A program made the translations under genes and the position numbers. From a virus (lineage: Duplodnaviria > Caudoviricetes), in IMG/VR virus record IMGVR_UViG_3300011336_000712, positions 1 to 27,734 of that record: 27,734 bases of DNA; one strand, 5' to 3'. Positions within the stretch are counted from its first letter, which is position 1. Every line of letters begins with the position of its first letter. This document shows, piece after piece, positions 917 through 27,436 of the stretch. The notes beneath the pieces are model-generated. The model was not told the origin of the DNA. It made no database searches and worked only from the letters and a program-made list of their open reading frames with translations.

Positions 917-3265
917 CTAGCTCAAACGGTAGGTGACAAAGGTGTTAGCAGCCGTTCGTCGTGATGCAAAGCGACCAGACGTGCCTGTAGCAACAGAACC
1001 GGAACCAACAACAGTGTGGGCAGTACCTGCCAATACACGCACCAGGCTGGGACCAGTGTTAATCACACTCCACTCAAAGGTAAAGTTGTCGTAAGTGCTG
1101 CTGAAACCAGCTTGAGTGTCTGTGCCAGTAGGCAACGTCATGTCAGTCGCTGCCGCTGAGGTGCTGGTGATGATGCCAGCTTTTAGGTTTGCGACTGTAA
1201 GAGTTGCAGTGGCATTAACTGCTGCAGGAGCGGGCTGGTCATGCGCAATTACACCGTCATTAGTGATACGGAAACGCTCCGTCGGGGAACTAGCCCCATC
1301 CGCCGTAGTGGAGAACACTAGCCTGCCCGGCATGTCATTCAGGCCAGGGGCGCCGTCTACAAAACAATCAATACGTGCGGCTATCGTGTAGCCAGAGCCG
1401 TCGTAACCCCTGAAACTGAAAGTTGCAATGTTATCGGCGCTTCCGAGAATTGAAGGGGTCGCTCCTGTTCCACGAGACCCAAACATGTTAATGATGCTGT
1501 GCTCTGTACCAGCGTCTCTGTTGGCAACAATATTTAGACCAACAAAACCATCGCCTTGCATTCTTACAACGTCATCGCCTGAGCCTTTAATCTGTAACAA
1601 CCCTGCGCCAAGACTCGTAGACGTACCAACTAAGAGCCTGCCGAAGCTGTCGATGCGGGCACGTTCGGTATCATTGGTTCCAAACGTCAAAGCAGCATTT
1701 GATTTATTGGTAATTGTTGCGCTTGCGTCATTAAAGCTTATTAATGTCAAAGCTCCGGTTAGCCCGCTTCTCCCCCCTCCATTGGCTACAAAATAGGCTG
1801 CATAGCCAGATCCCGCAGTGTTAAGCAGTACATTGTCGTCTGCACTTGCATTAATATGCAGCTTGTAAGCAGGACTCGCAGTGCCAATCCCTACATTGCC
1901 TCCTGGTAGAAGTGTAATTATGTTGAAGTCGGTGGTATCACTGCTTATTCTTGCGCCAATCCTTAAATCGTCAGCTCCACTTGCGCCATTAACAAAAAAA
2001 CGTCTGCTTGATCCACCAATAACAAAACGAGAACCACCTGCTTGGTCAATATTTAGCGTCGCCCCGCCGCCAACTGTCCCAGGCGTACTAGTCCCTATGC
2101 CTAGGCGGCCTGAGGAGTCGATGCGGGCAAATTCGCTCGTGGCATCATTAAACGTGATTTCTGTGGCGTTGATCTTTATCCTATCTCTATCATTGCTGCC
2201 AATCTTTAATAGACCAGTTGTTCCGCCATCAACGTAAGAGTTGGTGGCTCCCGTCCCAGCCCAAAGCAAAGCGGCGGTAAAACGAGCGTTTCCAACAACG
2301 TGCAATGGCTGGTTAGGGACCGAAGTCCCCACGCCCACGAGCCCTGCCGAGGTGATACGCAGGCGTTCTTGCAGAGAAGTAGCGGCCGAAGTAGCTCTTG
2401 TTGCAAATGCTAAATCGCCTGCTGTGTTGTTGCTGCCATCGGTTAGAAGACCTTTGATTGCAGCAAATCCAAGGCTATTTGCAAAGTCACCTTGATTATT
2501 TGTGAAGAGCAGCGCACCTCCTTCGCCTCCACTTGCACCAGTGCCGGAAAGGCGCAGCATCCCGCCCCGTCCTCCAGCATCCGTGAGGTTAGCCGTCGAT
2601 TGACCAACACCTGCAATGTGAACCTGAGCACGGATTGTTGCGGCCCCCACCCCGACATTCCCACTCGCATCCACGAACACGCGGCCAACCCCAGAGGAGC
2701 TGATGGCTAATTGGTCTGCGCCGGGTGAATAAATGCCTGTGTTAGGGTCCGTGGTAAAACTATAAGTAGGCGCAGATGCACTACCCAAGCTAACGGCTTC
2801 AATTTGGCCGGCAGCATCAACTCTTAAACGCTCAGTACCACTGGTAGTAATAGAAACCTGGTCGACAGCGGAAGCATATATACCAGTATTACTATCGCCA
2901 GCAAAACTAATTGACGGATTAGCCGCAGTGCCAGATGCAAATACACCGGAAGTGATGGTATAAATACCGCCGCTAATATTAGTAAAATTACCGCTTGCAA
3001 AATTTGCAGTAGTACCGGTAACAGTAGTGCCTGTAATGGTAGTGAATCCAGCGGTTCCACCTGTAAGAGTGGTAAATTGGCCGATGCCTCCAGTTACAGT
3101 TGCACCCGATACAAGAGTGCCACCTTGAATAATGTTGCCGGAAACAGTTCCAGTGACTGTTAAACTGCCGGATGTAGACGCAACAAGCCCGGATACTGTT
3201 ACTGTTTGATCGCTTCCACCGTTAGTGAAAACAATGTTATCGACTTTGATACTTCCGTATGGCAT
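917..3265 (-). CDS. Tail fibre / receptor-binding protein (782 aa)
   Basis: G/T/S-rich, with repeated ERxRIxxxGx(V/L)GIGTxxP and NTGIY...DQ modules typical of phage fibre shafts. Confidence 0.85.
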   Translation of the reverse strand: MPYGSIKVDNIVFTNGGSDQTVTVSGLVASTSGSLTVTGTVSGNIIQGGTLVSGATVTGGIGQFTTLTGGTAGFTTITGTTVTGTTANFASGNFTNISGGIYTITSGVFASGTAANPSISFAGDSNTGIYASAVDQVSITTSGTERLRVDAAGQIEAVSLGSASAPTYSFTTDPNTGIYSPGADQLAISSSGVGRVFVDASGNVGVGAATIRAQVHIAGVGQSTANLTDAGGRGGMLRLSGTGASGGEGGALLFTNNQGDFANSLGFAAIKGLLTDGSNNTAGDLAFATRATSAATSLQERLRITSAGLVGVGTSVPNQPLHVVGNARFTAALLWAGTGATNSYVDGGTTGLLKIGSNDRDRIKINATEITFNDATSEFARIDSSGRLGIGTSTPGTVGGGATLNIDQAGGSRFVIGGSSRRFFVNGASGADDLRIGARISSDTTDFNIITLLPGGNVGIGTASPAYKLHINASADDNVLLNTAGSGYAAYFVANGGGRSGLTGALTLISFNDASATITNKSNAALTFGTNDTERARIDSFGRLLVGTSTSLGAGLLQIKGSGDDVVRMQGDGFVGLNIVANRDAGTEHSIINMFGSRGTGATPSILGSADNIATFSFRGYDGSGYTIAARIDCFVDGAPGLNDMPGRLVFSTTADGASSPTERFRITNDGVIAHDQPAPAAVNATATLTVANLKAGIITSTSAAATDMTLPTGTDTQAGFSSTYDNFTFEWSVINTGPSLVRVLAGTAHTVVGSGSVATGTSGRFASRRTAANTFVTYRLS

Positions 3266-3310
3266 GATAACCTTTTTTCTTTATTTTACTGTACAAATAA
3301 ATAGATGCAA

Positions 3311-5098
3311 TTAGGGAAGAACCGTAATAGTGCCACGGATAATTAAACCGGCATCCCCTGAAATTACACCGGATGAAATCAATGCGGGCGTTGTGCCAGA
3401 TGGCGCGTTAAAAACACCTGACACAAAGTTTGCGCTGGTACCGGTAACCGTAGTTCCAGTAATAGTTGTAAATCCGGCAGTATTTCCCGTAATAACTGCA
3501 CCGGAGATTCGACTTGTAAATACTCCAGAAACACCGTTTACAGTGGTGAAGCTACCGATGTTACCAGTAACAGTTGCACCAGAAACACTTGACGCGAATA
3601 CACCGGTAACACTGGCAAGATCTGTAAAATTGCCCTTATTTCCTGTAACCGTGGCTCCAGAAAGACTGGTTGCACCAACAATAGTTTGGCCGGTAATTGT
3701 GGTAAATTGCCCGGCATTTCCGGTGACCGTGGTCCCAGAAAAACTTGTGGTTGCAACAATTGTTTGTCCGGTAACAGTAGCAAAATTTGCGCTATTTCCG
3801 GTAAACGTTACGCCTGAGACATAAGAAGTAAATACCCCAGAGATGCCTGTGATTACTGAAAAGTTGCCCGTATTACCTGTGACAGTAGCACCTGAAACAC
3901 TAGTTGTTCCAACAACGTCTTGTCCTGTGATGCTTGTAAAGTTGGCTGCCGTGCCTGTTACAGCAACACCAGATAAAGCTGAAGTGAATACTCCAGTTGC
4001 CCCAGTAACACTGGTAAATTGACCAATGTTTCCAGTAACGGTATTGCCAATTACTGTTGTACCAAAAACACTGGTAGTTCCATACAAAGTATCACCGGTA
4101 ACCGTAATAAATAACGCTGTAGTACCAGTGACCGTGGCACCCGAAACACTTGTTGTGCCGACAATAGTTTGACCGGTAATTGTAGAAAATCTGCCGGTAT
4201 TGCCAGTGACTGTATCCCCGGAAAGACTGCTTGTAAATACGCCTGTAGCACCGGTCAGTGTTGTGAATCTACCTGTATTACCTGTAACAACCGTGCCGCT
4301 TACCAAACCAGTCGCATATACACCAGAAGCAACATAAGCATTACCAAGAACCGTTAGGTCGCCGGATACGATGACGCAAGTAAAAGCAAGGTTTTCAAAC
4401 GCACCGCTTACGGCCGTAATGGTTCCACCGGGAATGCTTGCCCCATAAAGGTAAGAGCTGTAGACACCACTGGTAAAGTTTGCAGTTGTACCAGTGACTG
4501 TTGCACCTGTGATTCGAGTAAATGCAGCAGTTGTACCGGTAACTGTTGTGCCACTTAATGTGCCGGTTACCGTTAATCCCGAGCTAATAGCAACGTTACC
4601 ACCAACATTTAAGGTGCCGGCAACAGTTGCGTTTCCATTAACAGTCTGAGCGGCGGTAACAACAGATTGAAAATTACCCGTTGTTGCATTGACTGTATTG
4701 CCGGTGATAGTTGCGCCAGAGACCCTGGAGCTAAAGATGCCGGTCTGAGCGGTAATGGTGGTACCTGTAAAAGTAACGCCGCTGACAGTTCCGCTGACAG
4801 TTAAATTATTTTGTACTACAACACCACTAAAAGAAGCAAGGCTCGTGCCTGTAATAGTCGTTACGTATGTACTGCCACTGACAGTGAGATCCCCTTGAAC
4901 AATCAAGCCGCTGGTAATGACACCACCAGTGACTGGAATGTATTTAGTTGTAAGGTAATCCCTAAAACCTGAAACGGTAATACGTTTATTTTTTAAGGTG
5001 GGGTCAACTTCAAAGACGTGCACCATCGTGAGCAAATCCTGCTCAGCAATCTCGGATCCCGTAAGGATCGGAAGCTCAGATATACGTCTGTTTGCCAC
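3311..5098 (-). CDS. Repeat-rich tail fibre/spike-like structural protein (595 aa)
   Basis: N-terminal MANRRISELP...DLL attachment-type motif followed by T/G/S/V-rich tandem repeats. Confidence 0.75.
   Translation of the reverse strand: MANRRISELPILTGSEIAEQDLLTMVHVFEVDPTLKNKRITVSGFRDYLTTKYIPVTGGVITSGLIVQGDLTVSGSTYVTTITGTSLASFSGVVVQNNLTVSGTVSGVTFTGTTITAQTGIFSSRVSGATITGNTVNATTGNFQSVVTAAQTVNGNATVAGTLNVGGNVAISSGLTVTGTLSGTTVTGTTAAFTRITGATVTGTTANFTSGVYSSYLYGASIPGGTITAVSGAFENLAFTCVIVSGDLTVLGNAYVASGVYATGLVSGTVVTGNTGRFTTLTGATGVFTSSLSGDTVTGNTGRFSTITGQTIVGTTSVSGATVTGTTALFITVTGDTLYGTTSVFGTTVIGNTVTGNIGQFTSVTGATGVFTSALSGVAVTGTAANFTSITGQDVVGTTSVSGATVTGNTGNFSVITGISGVFTSYVSGVTFTGNSANFATVTGQTIVATTSFSGTTVTGNAGQFTTITGQTIVGATSLSGATVTGNKGNFTDLASVTGVFASSVSGATVTGNIGSFTTVNGVSGVFTSRISGAVITGNTAGFTTITGTTVTGTSANFVSGVFNAPSGTTPALISSGVISGDAGLIIRGTITVLP
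3428..4300 (-). repeat. About 11 tandem 26-aa (78-nt) coding repeats, consensus SGxTVTGNxGxFxxITGxTxVxTxSV
   Basis: Read from the translation, e.g. SGDTVTGNTGRFSTITGQTIVGTTSV and SGATVTGNTGNFSVITGISGVFTSYV. One unit has a 5-aa insertion. Confidence 0.85.
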
Positions 5099-18855: not shown

Positions 18856-19317
18856 TTACCTCCAAAGCTCATGTAAATAAAGACGAGTGCCAACCGAGAC
18901 ATCGGCAGGTCCAGGTAGTGCCTGGATGAATTCAGCACCAGAGCGTTCGTAACGGTAACGAGCCTGGAACGGATCCTTGTAGTTGGGAACGTAAAGAATG
19001 CCAGCTAAACGGTTTGTTTCGTAGAGATAAACCTCGTCCCAAACCTTTAATGCTTCTTTGGCATTGCTAGACCGGATAGTACGGTCAACGTCGCCAGCAA
19101 TACTTTCAAGTCGAGTAGAAGGTGAAGTTGCGACCTCGGTCTTCTTCTCGGCGGTATCACAACGACCAATTTGAATAGCAATTTTATCGTAGAAGTACGA
19201 ATCTGGGACTGTATTCATGGATTCTTCAAGCCGACTGTAGTCACCAGCGGGCACCGACACGGTAAAATACCCTAGATGGTAACGGACTCTGCTTTTGTCA
19301 AAATCAGACAGTTGCAC
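18856..19317 (-). CDS. Putative head-completion/adaptor-type protein; first 30 codons supplied by HNH cassette 1
   Basis: GTG at 19317 lies 7 nt after GGAGG (19325-19329), whereas the ATG at 19323 is only 1 nt from it. Product inferred from size and position. Confidence 0.75.
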   Translation of the reverse strand: MQLSDFDKSRVRYHLGYFTVSVPAGDYSRLEESMNTVPDSYFYDKIAIQIGRCDTAEKKTEVATSPSTRLESIAGDVDRTIRSSNAKEALKVWDEVYLYETNRLAGILYVPNYKDPFQARYRYERSGAEFIQALPGPADVSVGTRLYLHELWR

Positions 19318-19836
19318 AACCATGCCTCCAGTACAAACATTCTAAATCAGTAAGCCCATGGCCAAACGAGAAATTAACCCACAAACAGGCAAGCACTACG
19401 TTTTTGGAGACGTACGACAAGATGGGTATATTTTTAGGCAGTGGGGCCGAGTAAAAGCAGATGGATTCCAACAAGCCCTATGGCTGAGTCCCAAGGCTTT
19501 TAAACGCAACAGAGAACAAACACTTTGTTATCACCGAGAAAAAACAAAAGAGCTTAGAAACTGGGTGAATAAACTAAAAATATTCTATGGTTGCGCAATC
19601 TGCGGATACAATCAAGAGCCAGAGGGTCTAGACATTGATCACTTGCGTGACAAATCTTTTAATATTGGAGGCGAAATAAAAACAAACAAAAGCCGAATTA
19701 TCAAAGAAATACAAAAATGCCAAATTTTATGCGGAACTTGTCACAACATAAAAACAAGAGCCCCTGAAAAATACGCTCAATTAATAAAACAAAAAGGGGA
19801 AAAATGTTTAGATATCAATCAATTTTTAAAACAAGA
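19228..19836 (+). mobile_element. HNH cassette 1: endonuclease plus recoded replacement 5' end of the target gene
   Basis: Bounded by a protein-level direct duplication (19228-19317 vs 19837-19926); AT-rich; nuclease antisense to all neighbours. Confidence 0.8.
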
Positions 19837-19849
19837 AAGACGAGCGTAA
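19358..19849 (+). CDS. HNH-family putative homing endonuclease 1
   Basis: GCAICGY...LDIDHL...KCQILCGTCHNIKT His-Me/zinc motif; N-terminal INPQTG...GDVRQDG domain. Confidence 0.85.
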   Translation: MAKREINPQTGKHYVFGDVRQDGYIFRQWGRVKADGFQQALWLSPKAFKRNREQTLCYHREKTKELRNWVNKLKIFYGCAICGYNQEPEGLDIDHLRDKSFNIGGEIKTNKSRIIKEIQKCQILCGTCHNIKTRAPEKYAQLIKQKGEKCLDINQFLKQERRA

Positions 19850-19926
19850 TCGCCCGCCGGGACAGAAACCGTGAAATAGCCCAGGTGATACCTGACCCTA
19901 CTTTTGTCAAAGTCAGATAATTGCAC
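19819..19926 (-). pseudogene. Orphan 5' fragment of gene 18856-19317
   Basis: GTG start; translates MQLSDFDKSRVRYHLGYFTVSVPAGDYARL then SCFKN*. 29 of 30 aa match the intact gene. TATAAT box at 19948-19953. Confidence 0.92.
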
Positions 19927-19975
19927 TTCTAACTTGCGTATCTTTCAATTATAAATGCAAAGAATCCCTTGAAAC

Positions 19976-20650
19976 TTAACCTTGGTAAGGATTTGAGCTG
20001 ATGTATTGTTCCAGCATTTCTTGTGCCAAGCTGCGCCTAGGGACCATAGCAGAAGCTGCCATCTGTTCAAACATAGATTGTTGTAAAGTCTTTTGCTTGG
20101 GTTGTACCAGGGATGCTCCGTACATCATGGCTTGTACAAAAGAATCCATATTGGATCCGGTGTTTTGTGCGTTGGACGTTGGCGTTTGATTACTTGTAAA
20201 TTCGGCAGCCTTGCCAAGGCTTGCCATGTGTCCAATACCAACTTCGTATTTATTGTCTCCCGTTTTAAATGTTGCCAGATTTCCGTAACCCCCTTGGTCA
20301 GCAAGAGGTGTAAATTTGCCTGCACCTTCCATATATACAGGCGTTCCTTCGGGAAGGGCCCAGTCTTCCCCTTGATGGAAAGAAGATGCTCCAGCAGTAG
20401 GTGCGGTGCGAGGACCAAATTTAGATGTGACGGCTACGTTGGAAGCTGGATTTAAAACCAGTTGGCCTTCTTTGTTTTTGATAATTGCAGGAACCTTTTG
20501 TTCGCCAATGCGTAAACCAGTTAATGCACTGCGAATAGTACTTGGGTCAATGTGTTTTCCCGTACCAAGATCTTTTACGTATATATGGCCATGGGGACCA
20601 GTGGAGGTTCCGGTACTGCCGATATTTCCTAAGAATGCAATGCCTGCCAT
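19976..20650 (-). CDS. M23-family peptidase domain protein, circularly permuted
   Basis: GSTGTSTGPHGH at the N-terminus precedes TSKFGPR...HQGED...GTPV...GGYGN...GHM. Confidence 0.8.
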   Translation of the reverse strand: MAGIAFLGNIGSTGTSTGPHGHIYVKDLGTGKHIDPSTIRSALTGLRIGEQKVPAIIKNKEGQLVLNPASNVAVTSKFGPRTAPTAGASSFHQGEDWALPEGTPVYMEGAGKFTPLADQGGYGNLATFKTGDNKYEVGIGHMASLGKAAEFTSNQTPTSNAQNTGSNMDSFVQAMMYGASLVQPKQKTLQQSMFEQMAASAMVPRRSLAQEMLEQYISSNPYQG

Positions 20651-20677
20651 TATTCTTTTATTTTTAATTTTAAGACT

Positions 20678-20701
20678 AAAAAACCCCTGGTTTCCCAGGG
20701 G
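20678..20701 (-). terminator. Rho-independent terminator after the orphan 3' end
   Basis: Minus strand CCCCTGG-gaaa-CCAGGGG-TTTTTT. Confidence 0.9.
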
Positions 20702-20716
20702 CCAGTAGGAGACAAG

Positions 20717-20749
20717 TTAAACGCGGACTAAGTCGGCAGCAAGTACGGC
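20717..20749 (-). pseudogene. Orphan 3' end of gene 21268-21681
   Basis: Translates AVLAADLVRV*; the intact gene ends AVLAADLIRV*. Confidence 0.85.
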
Positions 20750-20794
20750 AATAAAACGTTTCAGGTGTTATAGTTTTATTTTGCTATCTTAAAA

Positions 20795-21253
20795 ATGAAA
20801 AGAATTAATCCAAAAACTGGGGCATTTTTTAAACACGGCGACTGCAGGGAAGACGGCTTTATTTTTATTGGTTACAACTTTAAAAAAATTAAACAAGACG
20901 GAACTTTTTTAGAGGTATGGATGAGTCCCGAACAACAAGAAAAGAAAAAAACCTATGACAAAAAAAGATCTCAACGTTTGTCTTCTGAAAACAGAAACTG
21001 GATGAACAATTTAAAAATAACAGAAGGTTGCGCATGCTGTGGGTATAACGAACACCCCGAGGGACTAGATTTTGATCATCTTTACGATAAAAAATTTAAC
21101 ATTGGACGAGGGGGTACGTTTAGCAAAAAAAGACTTGAAAAAGAAATAAAAAAATGCCAGGTTCTCTGTGGCACATGCCATCACATAAAAACAAGAAATA
21201 AAGAAAAATTTAACGCCATAATGAAAAAGAGGGGTGTTGCCCCTCTTGGTTGA
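20795..21253 (+). CDS. HNH-family putative homing endonuclease 2 (paralog of 19358-19849)
   Basis: GCACCGY...LDFDHL...KCQVLCGTCHHIKT; N-terminal INPKTG...GDCREDG domain. Confidence 0.85.
   Translation: MKRINPKTGAFFKHGDCREDGFIFIGYNFKKIKQDGTFLEVWMSPEQQEKKKTYDKKRSQRLSSENRNWMNNLKITEGCACCGYNEHPEGLDFDHLYDKKFNIGRGGTFSKKRLEKEIKKCQVLCGTCHHIKTRNKEKFNAIMKKRGVAPLG
21224..21247 (-). terminator. Terminator embedded antisense in the 3' end of HNH 2
   Basis: Minus strand AAGAGGGG-caaca-CCCCTCTT-TTT, 20 nt after the stop of gene 21268-21681. Confidence 0.7.
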
Positions 21254-21267
21254 GTTATGCGTTTAAA

Positions 21268-21681
21268 TCAGACCCTTATTAAATCGGCTGCCAAGACCGC
21301 ACTCCAGTCAACCCTTTTGATTTGCTTTAACTGCTCGAGGCTGTTAAATCTCTCACCCGATAAGGACATCTGTAGATCTTTGATTTCTCGGGCAGTCTTC
21401 AGTCCAATGCCTTTGATATGATCTGCGATCATTTGGGCGGTGGCTGAGTTGATGTTCAAGCGAGTGTCCGGAGGAAAAGTACGGGGCTCTTCTTGTGCCG
21501 CTTTATCTTTTACCTGAAGAGCAGTCACCTTTTTGGTAGCTTGCTCGTCAGGGATAAGTTCGGTTTTGTAAGCAGTGTAAAGGCGACCGTCCTGATCTTC
21601 GACCATGAACCAATCGCCGTTATCCCATTCACTTACAATCTTGACGCGAGCGCCTGTTTTTTTATGCTGATGAAGAATCAT
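21268..21681 (-). CDS. Helix-hairpin-helix (ComEA-like) domain protein
   Basis: LNINSATAQMIADHIKGIGLKTAREI...FNSLEQLKQIKRV HhH signature. Confidence 0.8.
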   Translation of the reverse strand: MILHQHKKTGARVKIVSEWDNGDWFMVEDQDGRLYTAYKTELIPDEQATKKVTALQVKDKAAQEEPRTFPPDTRLNINSATAQMIADHIKGIGLKTAREIKDLQMSLSGERFNSLEQLKQIKRVDWSAVLAADLIRV

Positions 21682-21719
21682 AAAGACCAGATTTTCTCTC
21701 TGGTCTTATATTAACCTAA

Positions 21720-22517
21720 TCAGCTAACAGTGCGGCCAGTCAGGTAGCCATCGATGTCCTCGTAACCAGGGGCATCATCGGGCTGGATGTAGCACACTTC
21801 CACGACCAGGTAACCGGTGCGGCCAGCGTTGGAATCAGCGGTCGAGATGTAGAAACCACCGGAAGTAGCGGTAGCGTTACCGGAGTCCTTAGCGAACACT
21901 TTCAGAGTGGTACCAGTGGTGGCTGCGTAGTAGCACACACCGCCGGAGACGCCAGCAGCGCCGGTAGCAGTGATGAACGGAGCGGTGCCAAAGGCTTGGG
22001 AACCACCAGCGAAGTAGATCTTGCCAGCAGCGTCACCAGACACGGTGGAGGTCAGGTTGGCCTGAATCACACCTTCGCCAGTGCCAGAGGCAGCCGTGGG
22101 GCCGCTGGAGTCGCGACCGAAGGAGATGATGTTGCCAGTAGCGGCATACACACCGGAAGCCACACGGCCATCACCCCAGCCAGAAGCAACGGAGATAGCA
22201 GCGCGATACACGAAGGCAGGCTGGGTGGTGGTGCCAGAGATCACCATGCCGGTGATGTCGGTACGAGTGTCATCCTGGCGGTAAGGCGAAGGAATGATCA
22301 CGTTGCCGGTAGCAGCAGGAGTGCCAGAGGTGGCGGTAACAGCCACGTAACCACGCTGTTGGAAGTAACGGTAGCCAGGGGTAGCCAGCACCGAAGTGGG
22401 GCCGCCCTTGGAAGCATCATTGGTGCCATCAGCAGAGGCATCAATGTTCTTATACCAACCGTTCAGAGGCTCTGCCCAGTTACCCGGGTAGATTTTTTTG
22501 GAAGACAAATAGGTCAT
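21720..22517 (-). CDS. Putative capsid decoration / minor structural protein
   Basis: Immediately after the capsid gene with the same strong codon bias; AGGAG RBS. Confidence 0.7.
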   Translation of the reverse strand: MTYLSSKKIYPGNWAEPLNGWYKNIDASADGTNDASKGGPTSVLATPGYRYFQQRGYVAVTATSGTPAATGNVIIPSPYRQDDTRTDITGMVISGTTTQPAFVYRAAISVASGWGDGRVASGVYAATGNIISFGRDSSGPTAASGTGEGVIQANLTSTVSGDAAGKIYFAGGSQAFGTAPFITATGAAGVSGGVCYYAATTGTTLKVFAKDSGNATATSGGFYISTADSNAGRTGYLVVEVCYIQPDDAPGYEDIDGYLTGRTVS

Positions 22518-22548: not shown

Positions 22549-23706
22549 TCAGATGATGCCGTCGTCTTGCAGGAAGCTGAAGGCGGTGGTCACGAAGTCC
22601 TTGTTCAGGATCTCGAAGCCGGCGTACAGTTGCCAAATCAGGATGATAAAACGGCTGAAGTCGTCGTTGTTGTTAATCAGCACCTGAGCATTGGGGCCGC
22701 CGATACCCACGCCAATGGCCTGAGGACCGAAGAAGTAACCCTGAGCAACTTCGTAAGAAGTGTAGTTGGAGCTGCCGCCAATGTTGAGGTCGGCAGTGAT
22801 GCTCTTGGTCGGGAAGTTGGTCGACTCGAAGAACTTAACGCCTTCAAACTGCACGCCGGTGGGCATGACAGGTTCACCAGCCAGGAAGTAACCTTGGCCG
22901 GCTTGGGGGCCCTGGTAGAAGCTGGCGTTGTTAGGCAGCATGGGGTTGCCCATGTACATGCCTTGGCCGGGGTTACCAGAGTAACGAGCGATCTCACGGA
23001 AGTCGGGGTCACGACGCAGGTGCATCATGAAAGTAGGATCGCAAATGCAGCGATACAGACCATCAGCGAAGGTCGGCACGTTGCGCTTACGCAGGTCCTT
23101 AACAACGGTCAGCAGGTCGGTACGCACCTGGAACTGTTGCACTTGAGCTTCGTACTGAGCCTGGGTGTAGGATACACGACCAGAAGCGTCCTTAACTTTA
23201 CCGCCGGGGAAGTAGTAACCACCTTGGGTAGAGGAAGCAACACCGTTAGCTTCGGCTTTGGCCAGTTCGTCAATAAAGACGCGGTCGCGCCAACGACGGT
23301 AGTCATCAAGCAGCGTCAGGCTACCGATGGACTGGTGGAACATGTTGAGGTTGCCGCTGTCCAGCAGAAGGCGCTGAGCAGTGATCAGGGTCTCACGTGC
23401 AATCTTGAAGGTCGAAGGCTGGGTCGGATCGCCGGGGTCCGCAGGACCGGTGTATTCCTTAAGCACCACCAGGACTTTTTCCTTGGTGATGTTACGGCTG
23501 TTAGCGGTACCGATGGTTTGGTCGGCAATACGCTCACGGCTATCCTTAGTACCAGGGGTACCCCAGAACTTGTAGCGGTCTAACTGAACAGTTTGACCGG
23601 GCTGACGGGTGAAGTCGTGGACAACCACGGGTTCCACTGCCATCTCAGCGATGTACGCAGGGTGGGGACGGTAGAGTTCCGCGCCCAAAATCTTTGGAAA
23701 ATCGTT
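22549..23706 (-). CDS. Major capsid protein, exon 2 (spliced product 389 aa, MFID-NDFPKILGAELY...)
   Basis: Follows portal and scaffold; strong C-ending codon bias; N4-gp56-like PGQTVQLDRY and EYTG motifs; frame open up to the intron's terminal G at 23707. Confidence 0.85.
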   Translation of the reverse strand, partial: NDFPKILGAELYRPHPAYIAEMAVEPVVVHDFTRQPGQTVQLDRYKFWGTPGTKDSRERIADQTIGTANSRNITKEKVLVVLKEYTGPADPGDPTQPSTFKIARETLITAQRLLLDSGNLNMFHQSIGSLTLLDDYRRWRDRVFIDELAKAEANGVASSTQGGYYFPGGKVKDASGRVSYTQAQYEAQVQQFQVRTDLLTVVKDLRKRNVPTFADGLYRCICDPTFMMHLRRDPDFREIARYSGNPGQGMYMGNPMLPNNASFYQGPQAGQGYFLAGEPVMPTGVQFEGVKFFESTNFPTKSITADLNIGGSSNYTSYEVAQGYFFGPQAIGVGIGGPNAQVLINNNDDFSRFIILIWQLYAGFEILNKDFVTTAFSFLQDDGII

Positions 23707-24726: not shown

Positions 24727-25689
24727 TCACTCCATCACAAACAGTTTGTTTGCAACCACGTTGGGCTGGGCGTAGTTCAGAAGGCGCCAGGCGTTTTCAG
24801 GGCTCGTTTCCATTTGTTGCTTAAAGCTACCCCAGAAGTTTTCAGGTTGCTGAGGAGCAGAAGCAGCAGGAGGAGCAGGGAACTCACCGTAGTTAGCTTG
24901 AACCGGAGCGGTGGGATAACCACGGGTTTCCAGTTGAGCTTCATTTTCGTACACAGGGTACGGACCTTCAGGACCAAAGAACTTCAGCGTGTAATCGCTA
25001 AGAACATCAGGGTTGGTCAGGATTTCGTTATAAGCCAGATTCTCGGTATGCTCAGCAACCGCAAAATCGGCATAACCACCAATCAGATTTTGTGCACGTT
25101 GGCCCCAGGCTACGGCACTATCGAGCATTCCTTCGAGTTGAAGGGCGTACTGGTTTAGCAGAGCCGGAGCTTCCACCCCGTACGCGTCGATCACTACTCG
25201 GCTTTCCTGGCTCAGACCCAGGTAGTCCGCTACGTCCGCCAAGGAGGGACTCGAGGAAGTTTGGGAAGAGCTGGGCGATGAGGCCGGGCTGGTTAATGAG
25301 GTCGGGGCTGCCGAGTTCCAGGTAGCTGGGCTGCTGGGCTGTCCGTAATTGGCCGGGGTATAGCTCGTCGGAGCTGATTGTTGACCCTGGAACGGGGATT
25401 GAACTGGTGCGCTCAGCAGGTTCACCACCTTGTTGAACGCCGATTCCCATGGATTCCCCTGAGGAGCTTCCGCCGGTTGGGATTGGGGGGCGTACTGAGT
25501 AGGGGCGGATTGGTAGCTGATATTCGCTTGAGGAATCGCTTGGGGGTAAGCGGTCCCCACTTGGTACGCCACCGGAGCCGCTTGGTAGCTGCTGGGCGCC
25601 GGAGCCGCTGCTGTCACGTAGCTGCTCGGGGCTACTGACGGCTGTGCGGGGCTCATCTGTGGGATCGATTGGACGGTAGCGTCCTGCAT
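24727..25689 (-). CDS. Putative capsid scaffolding/assembly protein
   Basis: AAGGAG RBS before ATG 25689; P/Q/A/S-rich; lies between portal and capsid genes. Confidence 0.7.
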   Translation of the reverse strand: MQDATVQSIPQMSPAQPSVAPSSYVTAAAPAPSSYQAAPVAYQVGTAYPQAIPQANISYQSAPTQYAPQSQPAEAPQGNPWESAFNKVVNLLSAPVQSPFQGQQSAPTSYTPANYGQPSSPATWNSAAPTSLTSPASSPSSSQTSSSPSLADVADYLGLSQESRVVIDAYGVEAPALLNQYALQLEGMLDSAVAWGQRAQNLIGGYADFAVAEHTENLAYNEILTNPDVLSDYTLKFFGPEGPYPVYENEAQLETRGYPTAPVQANYGEFPAPPAASAPQQPENFWGSFKQQMETSPENAWRLLNYAQPNVVANKLFVME

Positions 25690-27436
25690 AACTCATCTCC
25701 TTTTGTAAAGCTTCTAACGTTCGATACAGATACGGGGTTAAATCCAATCTTGGATCCGCAGCCATCGGAAGATCCGGTGATTGCGGGTGGGGCGTCTGCA
25801 TCATTCCCCCCACTAGCTTGGCAAACTGAGAGTAAGCACTCTGCAATTCGTTAACCATCCTGAACGGGAACCCAGATAACATCTCGGCCCGTTCCTCATC
25901 CGTCTTAGACGGGAAGAGGTATTTCAGTGCTTCAATGCTATCAACACCTAATTCTTGCAGGTTTCGCACCACGATGGAGTTGTTGAGAATATCTTGTGTC
26001 GAATCTTCATACACAGGACCTAACCAACGCCAAAGCATTGTGACATCCCCGTCAGGAATCAAGCCCATGACTCCGGGTGGAATCTGCTGGGCCTGAACAC
26101 AAGCCATCATTAACTGTTTAACTTTATCGTTGTGTTGCTTAAGAGCCTCTTCATATGCAGCAACTTCTTCCTCAGGTGAACCCTTGGAAGGAGCAACAGG
26201 TTTCTCAAGTCCGGCTGCTTGTGCCAGGGTGTTCTTGAAGAGCTGCTCTTCTTGATAGATGATTAATTCAAGGCAACGGCAGATACCATGCGTATAGATG
26301 GCATTTGCTTTTTTCTTGGAAGTTGCGGAAACACGTCCAAACAGCGACTTGTATTCCGTTGCTGTTACACCGGCGGAAATAGAAAGTTCATCAACGCCGC
26401 CAAGTGCGGTGCGAATCTCTTCTCGATACTGCCGTGCAAATGCGTTTTGGTCACCAGTGATGGCATCTGGAACAATGTAACCAACACGGTCGTTTGGCTC
26501 CAGGTTAGCAATAACGCGTGGCACGCGGATAGTACCGTCTACTCCACGACTGATGGGATCAGATTTAAACGTCGACCGGCTTAATGCACTGGGACTATTG
26601 AAGCCGGAGTTTGCAGCAATGGAGGGACGCTGAATAGTGGTGTCGCCCCCAGCTTCCATCAGGTCCGTTTTGGGACGTGATGAGAGAAGTGTTGGGTTAC
26701 CAAAGAACTGCACATTCTTGCGCATCGTGCGAACCATTTCATCGTGAATGACGATATGGTTTGCCATCGAATCAAAATCTCCGACCCCTTCAGTAGAGAA
26801 ACCTTTGGGGTTGTTGAAGATTTCAACGCAAGGGATAAAGCCTAACGTATTTTTAAACGTTTTAGTTTTCCCTGGTACTGCATAGGAAGGCATGTCAAAT
26901 GACATCTCACCTTCAGCATGAGTCTCTTCAATTTCATCGGCTTTAATAGAAAGCCTGATGTAACGCTTAGCACCCTGGTCGCCTGTTACCGTTGAACCAG
27001 TAATGCTCTTGATGTTGATATTATCATTCAAACCAAAGCCCTTGCGGACTTTATAGCTGTAGATGATTACCACCTCATCCAACTCACCGTCTACGTTGTA
27101 ATAAGAACGGTACTCGTGAGCACGGAAGTAATAAAGGCGATAGCTCACCTTAGTGGGACGGATATAAAAAAGACCCTTCCCGTCACACAAGAAGTATTCC
27201 CAAATGGAATCCAGGCGGATATCCATCTTGTTGTACTTCAGTACACGGTCAAGAAAGTCTTTGCGTTGTGCGCCAAAGTTATCTTGGGATGGAAAAAATT
27301 CAACTCCTTGGCGAATGCCGAAAAGTTTCATCTGAGCAATGTGAGACGCAATGATGCCCGTGTCGACGCCAACACTCCCATCTTTCTCAAGATAGGAATT
27401 GACCATTTCCTTAAGTCGACTTACAGCGTCAGCCAC
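25118..27436 (-). CDS. Putative portal protein with long C-terminal extension
   Basis: Size and position upstream of scaffold and capsid; NTLGFIPCVEIFN...GVGDF segment is portal-like; GAGGAG RBS. Confidence 0.75.
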   Translation of the reverse strand: MADAVSRLKEMVNSYLEKDGSVGVDTGIIASHIAQMKLFGIRQGVEFFPSQDNFGAQRKDFLDRVLKYNKMDIRLDSIWEYFLCDGKGLFYIRPTKVSYRLYYFRAHEYRSYYNVDGELDEVVIIYSYKVRKGFGLNDNINIKSITGSTVTGDQGAKRYIRLSIKADEIEETHAEGEMSFDMPSYAVPGKTKTFKNTLGFIPCVEIFNNPKGFSTEGVGDFDSMANHIVIHDEMVRTMRKNVQFFGNPTLLSSRPKTDLMEAGGDTTIQRPSIAANSGFNSPSALSRSTFKSDPISRGVDGTIRVPRVIANLEPNDRVGYIVPDAITGDQNAFARQYREEIRTALGGVDELSISAGVTATEYKSLFGRVSATSKKKANAIYTHGICRCLELIIYQEEQLFKNTLAQAAGLEKPVAPSKGSPEEEVAAYEEALKQHNDKVKQLMMACVQAQQIPPGVMGLIPDGDVTMLWRWLGPVYEDSTQDILNNSIVVRNLQELGVDSIEALKYLFPSKTDEERAEMLSGFPFRMVNELQSAYSQFAKLVGGMMQTPHPQSPDLPMAADPRLDLTPYLYRTLEALQKEMSYAGRYRPIDPTDEPRTAVSSPEQLRDSSGSGAQQLPSGSGGVPSGDRLPPSDSSSEYQLPIRPYSVRPPIPTGGSSSGESMGIGVQQGGEPAERTSSIPVPGSTISSDELYPGQLRTAQQPSYLELGSPDLINQPGLIAQLFPNFLESLLGGRSGLPGSEPGKPSSDRRVRGGSSGSAKPVRPSTRRNAR

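What the first reader, a model, noticed from the sequence alone, without database searches (positions are those of the whole stretch)
20678..21300. Cassette 2: replacement 3' end with a replacement terminator inside the nuclease gene
Intact end GCG GTC TTG GCA GCC GAT TTA ATA AGG GTC TGA versus orphan GCC GTA CTT GCT GCC GAC TTA GTC CGC GTT TAA: 2 identical codons, 7 synonymous, 1 conservative (I/V) and a different stop. The orphan is followed by a strong terminator (20678-20701), suggesting it is the original end. A second minus-strand hairpin with T tail (21224-21247) lies in the last codons of HNH 2, where it could end the host transcript and limit antisense read-through. Predicted empty site: ...GAC TGG AGT|GCC GTA CTT.
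Basis: partly seen in the sequence, partly recalled or inferred. Interest (0 to 1): 0.8.

Follow-up and report, generated by a model that had tools for sequence, protein, structure and literature searches.

The report
Nuclease cassette replacing gene end, terminator
A 551-base insert carrying a DNA-cutting (HNH) gene sits in the last 12 codons of a freshwater cyanophage gene, supplies a re-spelled gene end plus a predicted stop-transcription hairpin, and leaves the old end stranded in four separate phage lineages, so it likely spreads as a selfish element in the way known from fungal mitochondria and yeast.

Summary
Confirmed, with one correction. The window is an S-EIV1-like cyanophage. An antisense HNH gene (20795-21253) sits in the 3' end of a helix-hairpin-helix gene as a net 551-bp insert. 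Uninterrupted alleles are the rule (117 of 118 in an unbiased sample), most with the hairpin right after the stop. Four cassette lineages each have an empty sister: identical for 60 nt up to TGG, different at 12-17 of the 36 replaced bases, matching the stranded end at 28-30 of 30. So the orphan is each lineage's native end and the site was invaded repeatedly. Correction: AGT is cassette-borne; the empty site reads TGG GAT TCC GTA. All five cassette types keep a hairpin with a host-strand T run overlapping the nuclease's last codons; termination and cleavage are untested. Best reading: a homing cassette that carries its own immune gene end and terminator, like fungal mitochondrial mORFs and yeast WHO elements. 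A sister HNH next door replaces a 5' end. My paper searches found no phage description, but this scan noted the layout before in other phages. New variant of a known kind.

The parts
21268..21681 (-). Host gene, 137 aa, C-terminal helix-hairpin-helix domain, function unknown; second gene after the major capsid gene
   Evidence: Pfam HHH_3 E 1.2e-5, below the curated cut-off; 87% identical to an S-EIV1 protein
21268..21303 (-). Replacement 3' end (12 codons including stop), cassette-borne; left border directly after the Trp codon TGG at 21304-21306
   Evidence: 0 differences from empty sister L003 over gene nt 298-378, then 16 of 36
21224..21247 (-). Cassette hairpin plus T run, predicted intrinsic terminator on the host strand, overlapping the last HNH codons
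   Evidence: kept with different stems in 5 of 5 cassette types
20795..21253 (+). HNH endonuclease 2, 152 aa, antisense to the host gene; zinc-type HNH (two CxxC, DH, N, H)
   Evidence: PHROG 3106 E 1.8e-23; invariant columns; model pLDDT 91
20766..20774 (+). Extended -10-like motif (TG-n-TATAGT), predicted promoter of the HNH gene
   Evidence: Kept in 4 of 5 cassette types, TATCGT in the fifth; position; not picked up by the sigma-70 scan
20749..20758 (-). Right border of the cassette, conserved motif CGTTTTATTG
   Evidence: Shared by 4 of 5 types; the pattern scan returned 9 contigs, all carriers
20717..20749 (-). Orphan native 3' end (10 codons plus TAA)
   Evidence: 31 of 33 identical to the end of empty allele L003
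20678..20703 (-). Native hairpin plus T run (predicted terminator), followed by a -10-like TAAAAT (20667-20672) ahead of the M23 gene
   Evidence: a hairpin with T run follows the stop in 110 of 118 sampled alleles
19976..20650 (-). Downstream M23 peptidase-like gene, very variable among relatives
   Evidence: Pfam PF01551 E 4.6e-8; about 27-96% identity in relatives
19228..19926 (.). Sister cassette 1: HNH 1 (19358-19849, +) with a replacement 5' end (19228-19323) and an orphan 5' end (19837-19926) of the 155-aa gene
   Evidence: 47% identical to HNH 2; 609-nt skip in run X10

Best explanation
The 551-bp insert holds an HNH gene, a re-spelled copy of the host gene's last 12 codons and a hairpin, and it is likely an intron-less homing cassette that enters the empty allele at TGG|GA(N). 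Inferred steps: (1) the nuclease is made from the cassette's own -10 motif; (2) in a mixed infection it nicks or cuts the empty allele at or next to the Trp-Asp codons; (3) repair copies the cassette, with the host gene as left homology and the donor's orphan as right homology, so that the recipient's own end becomes the new orphan; (4) changed bases in the replacement end make the filled allele resistant while the protein stays whole; (5) the hairpin stops host-strand transcription about 25-45 nt after the new stop, in place of the displaced native terminator, and shields the antisense HNH gene. Shown: the anatomy, the borders, the native origin of the orphans, the scattered distribution and purifying selection on the HNH. 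Not shown: cleavage, resistance, biased inheritance, termination (about 0.65 on its own).
For: Four filled/empty sister pairs (window-L003, L084-L266, L089-L270, L121-L382) have 0 differences in the 60 nt before TGG|, 16, 12, 13 and 17 of 36 in the replaced end, and 1, 0, 2 and 1 of 30 between orphan and empty end. Orphans of different lineages differ at 5-10 of 30 bases but keep V[LF]AADL[IV]RV*, so they diverged while coding. In a tree of 154 upstream HhH sequences the 9 filled rows fall in four separate starred clades with empty rows; holding them together is rejected (p-AU 9e-45). Carriers are 1 of 118 in an unbiased pattern sample. An independent contig in run X17 skips exactly 551 nt. 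HNH types show dN 0.11-0.28 against saturated synonymous sites (pS 0.72-0.92) with intact catalytic motifs. The base after TGG is G in 94% of 125 distinct empty ends but not G in 4 of 5 cassette types; the fifth changes four other bases seen in at most 1% of empties. All five types have a hairpin with 5-6 T on the host strand against 2-4 on the HNH strand. The same model was shown by experiment for yeast WHO elements (PMC7282813, passages).
Against: There is no cleavage, inheritance or transcript-end evidence. L270, the empty sister of L089, already has A after TGG, so that base alone cannot define resistance for every type; about 6% of empties are non-G. Only 60 nt of upstream sequence exist for L089 (the later windows are artefacts). 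Hairpin covariation is weak: 2 pairs with two-sided changes, reached by 25 of 500 shuffles, and slid registers pair as well. One type (L090) has lost the orphan yet keeps an intact HNH. Near-zero donor flank on both sides is shorter than the co-conversion expected from break repair and needs an added assumption (trimming over many rounds, or nicking). The structural match to HNH nucleases is weak (Z 5.1, rmsd 3.3, 70 aligned; Foldseek E 0.011).
Confidence: 0.8

Rival explanations
1. The cassette moves by ordinary homologous recombination, and the nuclease is kept for another job (interference with co-infecting phages, or a target elsewhere in the genome), not for cutting this site.
For: Purifying selection does not name a target. 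T4 free-standing nucleases cut hundreds to thousands of bases from their insertion (PMC2988022, passages). Orphan-less forms persist (L090; for HNH 1, L126-L130, L189, L191). Flanks recombine freely: L001 differs from the window at 15 positions in the HhH gene.
Against: Borders fall at the same codon in 4 of 4 sister pairs with no donor flank left. Each type alters otherwise near-invariant bases right at the border. The sister HNH 1 shows the same pattern at its own border, Ser in 5 of 6 carriers against Ala in 67 of 73 empties.
Confidence: 0.12
2. On the hairpin only: it is mainly the HNH gene's own (two-way) terminator, or a structure inherited from an ancestral convergent gene pair, not a selected replacement for the host terminator.
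For: It sits at the HNH stop codon (in the loop in 3 of 5 types) and folds as well on the HNH strand (z -4.1). The A run behind the T tail is also dictated by Lys codons. 8 of 118 sampled alleles have no hairpin after the host gene, so the host gene can do without one.
Against: The T run is 5-6 on the host strand in 5 of 5 types and only 2-4 on the HNH strand. The distance from the new stop matches that of the native hairpin. The C-terminal peptide varies while the stem is kept.
Confidence: 0.25
3. One old insertion was inherited vertically, and empty alleles arose by repeated loss through recombination.
For: HNH types are old (65-78% nucleotide identity). L003 nests among filled rows in its clade.
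Against: Non-coding orphans would decay, yet 4 of 5 types keep an intact, lineage-specific end nearly identical to an empty sister. 99% of sampled alleles, and S-EIV1, are empty. Simple deletion cannot restore the Asp/Glu codon, which is missing from the window and L084 carriers.
Confidence: 0.04
4. The insert is an integrase-type element that restores its target gene from a carried 3' fragment (as recalled for lambdoid elements in icd), mobilised in trans.
For: The layout is the same: a replacement end on one side, the displaced end on the other, and sharp borders.
Against: The 551 bp encode only the HNH. There is no exact core repeat at the border: the sequence diverges at the first base after TGG, and 3-5 native bases are missing in two types.
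Confidence: 0.03

Closest known systems
WHO homing elements at yeast FBA1 (Coughlan et al. 2020, PMC7282813; passages read)
   Same: The nuclease gene lies between a full-length gene with a replaced, resistant 3' end and a fragment made of the previous 3' end, which serves as right-hand homology.
   Different: WHO proteins are intein-like zinc-finger fusions in a nuclear genome, replace about 400 bp and build tandem clusters. Here a 152-aa HNH in a phage replaces 36 bp, lies antisense, carries a terminator-like hairpin, and no tandem array was seen.
Fungal mitochondrial mORF gene hybrids: Allomyces macrogynus atp6; Glomus atp6, atp9, cox2, nad3 (PMC3630166; passages read; the 1994 Allomyces paper not read)
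   Same: A foreign C-terminus arrives with an endonuclease ORF; the displaced native end matches the empty relative better than the inserted end does.
   Different: LAGLIDADG or GIY-YIG nucleases, reported as part of the host transcript. Here an antisense HNH has its own promoter-like motif and a hairpin predicted to keep it out of the host transcript.
Free-standing phage homing endonucleases, T4 mob/seg genes, 'intronless homing' (PMC2988022; passages read)
   Same: An HNH nuclease outside any intron; mobE and segF also carry intrinsic terminators within their coding regions, and several carry host promoters.
   Different: T4 genes are intergenic and cut far from their insertion site; their internal terminators are at the 5' end of the nuclease gene. 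This element sits inside a coding end and duplicates it. A 2026 paper still states that free-standing HEGs are generally limited to intergenic sites (PMC13619312, passage).
PHROG 3106 HNH genes beside gp1.7-like kinases of T7-like phages (KP34 gp36, phiA1122)
   Same: 43-45% identity over nearly the whole protein, including the N-terminal domain.
   Different: In KP34 it is co-oriented with its neighbours, and I found no duplicated gene end there.

Membership tests
HNH homing endonuclease gene (phage, intron-less) | HNH / His-Me finger nuclease domain with intact catalytic residues | tested here: met
   PHROG 3106 E 1.8e-23; D94 H95, H129 and two CxxC invariant in 40 relatives; best fold match Gme HNH, weak (Z 5.1); no Pfam hit at E 0.05
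HNH homing endonuclease gene (phage, intron-less) | Filled and empty alleles at one fixed site, scattered over the host tree | tested here: met
HNH homing endonuclease gene (phage, intron-less) | Not inside an intron or intein | tested here: met
   No Rfam match up to E 1 in 19000-22000; the host gene ends before the HNH, which is antisense
HNH homing endonuclease gene (phage, intron-less) | Cleaves the empty allele and spares the filled one | not testable with these tools
   Indirect only: altered conserved bases at the border, with one counter-example (L270)
HNH homing endonuclease gene (phage, intron-less) | Biased inheritance in mixed infection | not testable with these tools
   Repeated invasion inferred
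T4-type free-standing (seg/mob) arrangement | Intergenic insertion without duplication of host coding sequence | tested here: not met
   The insert replaces 12 codons and strands the native end; only orphan-less forms such as L090 look like this
Gene-end replacement elements (mORF hybrids, WHO) as a layout | In-frame foreign 3' end upstream of the nuclease | tested here: met
Gene-end replacement elements (mORF hybrids, WHO) as a layout | Displaced native end downstream, closer to the empty relative than the working end is | tested here: met
   Orphan 0-2 of 30 differences against 12-17 of 36 for the working end
WHO family / mitochondrial mORFs as gene families | Intein-like LAGLIDADG-zinc finger (WHO) or LAGLIDADG/GIY-YIG nuclease in a eukaryotic genome | tested here: not met
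   HNH nuclease in a cyanophage
WHO family / mitochondrial mORFs as gene families | Tandem clusters of elements from repeated homing (WHO) | tested here: inconclusive
   None seen among 14 fetched carrier contigs; the sample is small
Intrinsic terminator | G+C-rich stem followed by a U run | tested here: met
   8-bp stem with 5 G-C pairs and 5 T; 5 of 5 types
Intrinsic terminator | RNA 3' ends at the U run | not testable with these tools
   Only contigs were available
Integrase-mediated element with replacement gene fragment | Integrase and exact att core repeat | tested here: not met
   Only an HNH ORF in the insert; no shared core after TGG

The most novel reading that the evidence does not exclude
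One HNH family has evolved self-insulated gene-end replacement cassettes that bring whichever transcription signal they displace: a terminator when invading a 3' end (cassette 2), a promoter and start when invading a 5' end (cassette 1). They home with near base-precise borders, and loss of the orphan turns them into ordinary-looking intergenic nuclease genes. Many 'free-standing' phage homing endonucleases would then be the worn-down end state of intragenic cassettes, and the neighbouring gene's terminus would be both their target and their cargo.
Probability: 0.35. Interest if true: 0.72.

Novelty: new variant of a known kind. Interest (0 to 1): 0.52.

Why it matters
Free-standing homing endonucleases are generally said to be confined to intergenic sites (PMC13619312). 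This element sits inside a conserved phage gene without splicing, by carrying the gene's end and probably its terminator. The filled/empty sister pairs fix the target to within a few bases, which makes a cleavage assay easy to design and gives a natural record of repeated invasion. It also warns that the last codons of such genes have a different history from the rest. The layout is known from fungi and was noted repeatedly by this scan in other phages, which limits the surprise.

Tried and rejected
(2) Intron: no Rfam match. (3) A generic six-frame test for duplicated gene ends around HNH relatives in loci L110-L264 flagged the 30-codon duplications of cassette 1, but the 10-codon duplications of cassette 2 did not beat shuffled controls. 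The test is too weak for short ends, so its silence on the distant relatives says little; the few distant loci it flagged look like neighbouring tRNA genes or tandem HNH genes and were not followed. (4) KP34: the stretch after its HNH looked like an orphan but is a small gene present in most relatives (240 of 245 records cover it). The EFA-2 region was fetched and not analysed further. (5) RNA: a metatranscriptome contig (X18) covers 21262-21678 including the replacement end and stops 15 nt before the hairpin, with no cover of the HNH; this is one run, and contigs show neither ends nor strand, so I draw nothing from the stop. No empty joint for cassette 2 appeared in DNA runs X3, X4, X5, X10. 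(6) Covariation count on the hairpin was weak and depended on the alignment. (7) Sequence search of solved structures gave nothing under E 0.3; Foldseek nothing under E 0.001; the N-terminal 40 residues have no tested fold match. (8) The function of the HhH protein stays unknown: no PHROG hit, Atlas clusters unnamed. (9) A search for papers on T5 SciA, a weak fold neighbour, found none. (10) Paper searches for a phage description listed none; keyword passages of PMC10448857 and PMC12724721 did not describe this layout. Subscription journals are mostly not in the library and no supplements were read, so a prior report cannot be excluded.

Full report
Setting. The window is a phage late-gene region: major head protein at 22549-23688 and a portal-like protein. 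The 137-aa gene at 21268-21681 (-) has a weak helix-hairpin-helix match, and its only relative among 50,697 cultured phage records is a protein of Synechococcus phage S-EIV1 at 87%. Host and habitat are therefore inferred: a freshwater cyanophage.

Observation. The orphan matches at 10 of 11 symbols, and the best other match in six frames of the window is 5 of 11. Both hairpins are at the stated places. Between them lies a 152-aa ORF on the opposite strand (20795-21253), an HNH nuclease by PHROG 3106 (E 1.8e-23). Its DH, H and two CxxC motifs are invariant in a 40-sequence alignment. The model is confident (pLDDT 91), but its best structural neighbour, the Gme HNH nicking endonuclease, is only a weak match (Z 5.1, rmsd 3.3, 70 residues).

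Empty alleles. Of the 80 HhH loci closest to the window, 2 carry the cassette, 76 have the gene end followed directly by a hairpin with a T run, and 2 are cut short. A pattern scan that does not favour the window's lineage returned 119 loci from 9 of 64 parts of the collection. I set one aside for lack of upstream sequence; 1 of the remaining 118 is a carrier, and 110 of 118 have a hairpin with a T run after the stop. S-EIV1 is empty. A contig in run X17 skips exactly 551 nt between 20743 and 21295.

Carriers. Searches with the HNH found 12 viral contigs and 2 metagenome contigs with the cassette at this site. They fall into five types at 97-100, 82, 75, 66 and 66% identity to the window's protein. 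Four types keep an orphan. In L090 the right-border motif is present but the orphan is gone.

Borders and polarity. Each orphan-bearing type has an empty sister: window-L003, L084-L266 (also L342, L355), L089-L270 and L121-L382. In all four pairs the 60 nt before TGG are identical. The 36 replaced bases differ at 16, 12, 13 and 17 positions, and the last 30 bases of the orphan differ from the empty end at 1, 0, 2 and 1. For L089 only those 60 upstream bases exist. The host lineages differ from each other at 20-32 of 120 upstream bases, so the flanks are host-specific right up to the border. Net inserts are 549-555 bp. In type L121 the orphan starts exactly at the GAT after TGG; in the window and L084 the first 3-5 native bases are missing. 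Orphans of different lineages differ at 5-10 of 30 bases, mostly third positions, and all still spell V[LF]AADL[IV]RV*, so each was stranded separately and recently. In a tree of 154 upstream sequences the 9 filled rows lie in four starred clades, each with empty rows, and one clade is rejected (p-AU 9e-45; L089 was left out as too short). The HNH genes show dN 0.11-0.28 against saturated synonymous sites, so they have been under selection for a long time.

Resistance signal. The base after TGG is G in 94% of 125 empty ends and A, A, A or C in four cassette types. The fifth keeps G but changes four bases seen in at most 1% of empties, turning AVLAAD into AIFSDD. Against this, L270 is empty and already has A; it may be a resistant product of conversion, or that type may read other bases.

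The hairpin. All five types have a stem 15-25 nt after the new stop, with different sequences, and each folds on its own. The T run is 5-6 long on the host strand and 2-4 on the HNH strand. The T run and one arm always overlap the HNH's K-K-x-G/D/E codons. The HNH stop lies in the loop in three types; in the window and L090 the ORF reads through the whole stem. The formal covariation count is weak (2 pairs, 25 of 500 shuffles). Eight of 118 alleles lack any hairpin, most of them running straight into the next same-strand gene. That suggests the host gene does not need a terminator, and that the cassette keeps one for its own sake, to stop late transcription running antisense through the nuclease gene; this is inference. 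Terminators inside free-standing nuclease genes are known for T4 mobE and segF (PMC2988022, passages). A TG-n-TATAGT motif 20 nt before the HNH start is kept in four types and varies by one base in the fifth. RNA data could not test termination.

Sister cassette. HNH 1 (47% identical) does the mirror image at the 155-aa gene: orphan 5' end at 19837-19926 and replacement start at 19228-19323. Carriers have a TANAAT motif ahead of the new start, like the native one, and Ser instead of Ala at the border in 5 of 6 carriers against 6 of 73 empties. The two cassettes assort independently: L001 and L002 have only cassette 2; L004, L046, L074 and L110 only cassette 1; runs X5 and X10 hold cassette 2, and X10 has a contig that skips cassette 1. 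Several HNH 1 loci (L126-L130, L189, L191) have no orphan and look like plain intergenic genes. Whether they are derived or ancestral was not tested.

Mechanism. The simplest account is homing with gene-end replacement: a cut near TGG|GAT, a left crossover in the host gene and a right crossover in the orphan. The absence of donor flank is expected if each round can only shorten it, or if the enzyme nicks; both are inference. Rivals are passive recombination with another role for the nuclease (0.12), a single old insertion (0.04) and an integrase-type element (0.03). For the hairpin alone, a role as the HNH's own terminator gets 0.25.

What is known. The layout and model match yeast WHO elements, where allele-specific cleavage was shown (PMC7282813, passages), and fungal mitochondrial mORF hybrids (PMC3630166, passages). 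It is not a member of those families: the nuclease, orientation, host and size differ. It differs from T4-type free-standing nucleases by sitting in coding sequence. Six searches for a phage description and keyword passages of PMC10448857, PMC12724721 and PMC13619312 gave none; I read no paper in full and no supplements, and most subscription papers are not searchable. Earlier notes of this scan report the same layout in other phages; they are unchecked leads, and one pointed me to the WHO paper.

Verdict. Real and well supported as a repeatedly invading HNH cassette with a replacement 3' end. The replacement terminator is likely but untested. New variant of a known kind; interest 0.52.

Noticed in passing
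window 19228-19926: Sister HNH cassette that replaces the 5' end (promoter-like TAGAAT, start, about 30 codons) of the 155-aa gene; empty in L001-L003 and in a contig of run X10, filled in L004, L046, L074, L110, L190, L192.
   Followed up: partly
L126-L130, L189, L191 (HNH 1) and L090 (HNH 2): Carriers without an orphan end, looking like ordinary intergenic nuclease genes; in L126-L130 the HNH stop abuts the upstream gene's stop.
   Followed up: partly
window 20667-20672 and the same place in most empty alleles: A -10-like TA(A/C/G)AAT motif directly follows the native terminator and precedes the M23 gene; similar motifs without a clear -35 precede other late genes.
   Followed up: no
window 19976-20650; L280, L296, L306, L317, L343, L347, L377: The M23-like gene between the two target genes is hypervariable (about 27-96% identity) and absent in some relatives, where HhH runs straight into the 155-aa gene without a hairpin. 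Both cassettes flank this variable slot.
   Followed up: no
L015, L029, L270, L273 and kin: Empty alleles with Asn after the Trp codon, as in two cassette types; they may be naturally resistant or converted without the nuclease.
   Followed up: no
window 2983-4786: Long array of 78-nt and 15-nt degenerate repeats in two large minus-strand ORFs, probably tail fibre proteins.
   Followed up: no
window 24727-25689 and 25118-27436: The portal-like ORF (772 aa) overlaps the following 320-aa ORF by about 570 nt in another frame; the start of the second may lie further downstream.
   Followed up: no
L384 (KP34) 1302-1983 against L386 824-1276: The HNH relative in Klebsiella phage KP34 follows a short (72 aa), divergent gp1.7-like kinase where an HNH-free relative has a 150-aa kinase; kinase allele and HNH may travel together. 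No orphan was found.
   Followed up: partly
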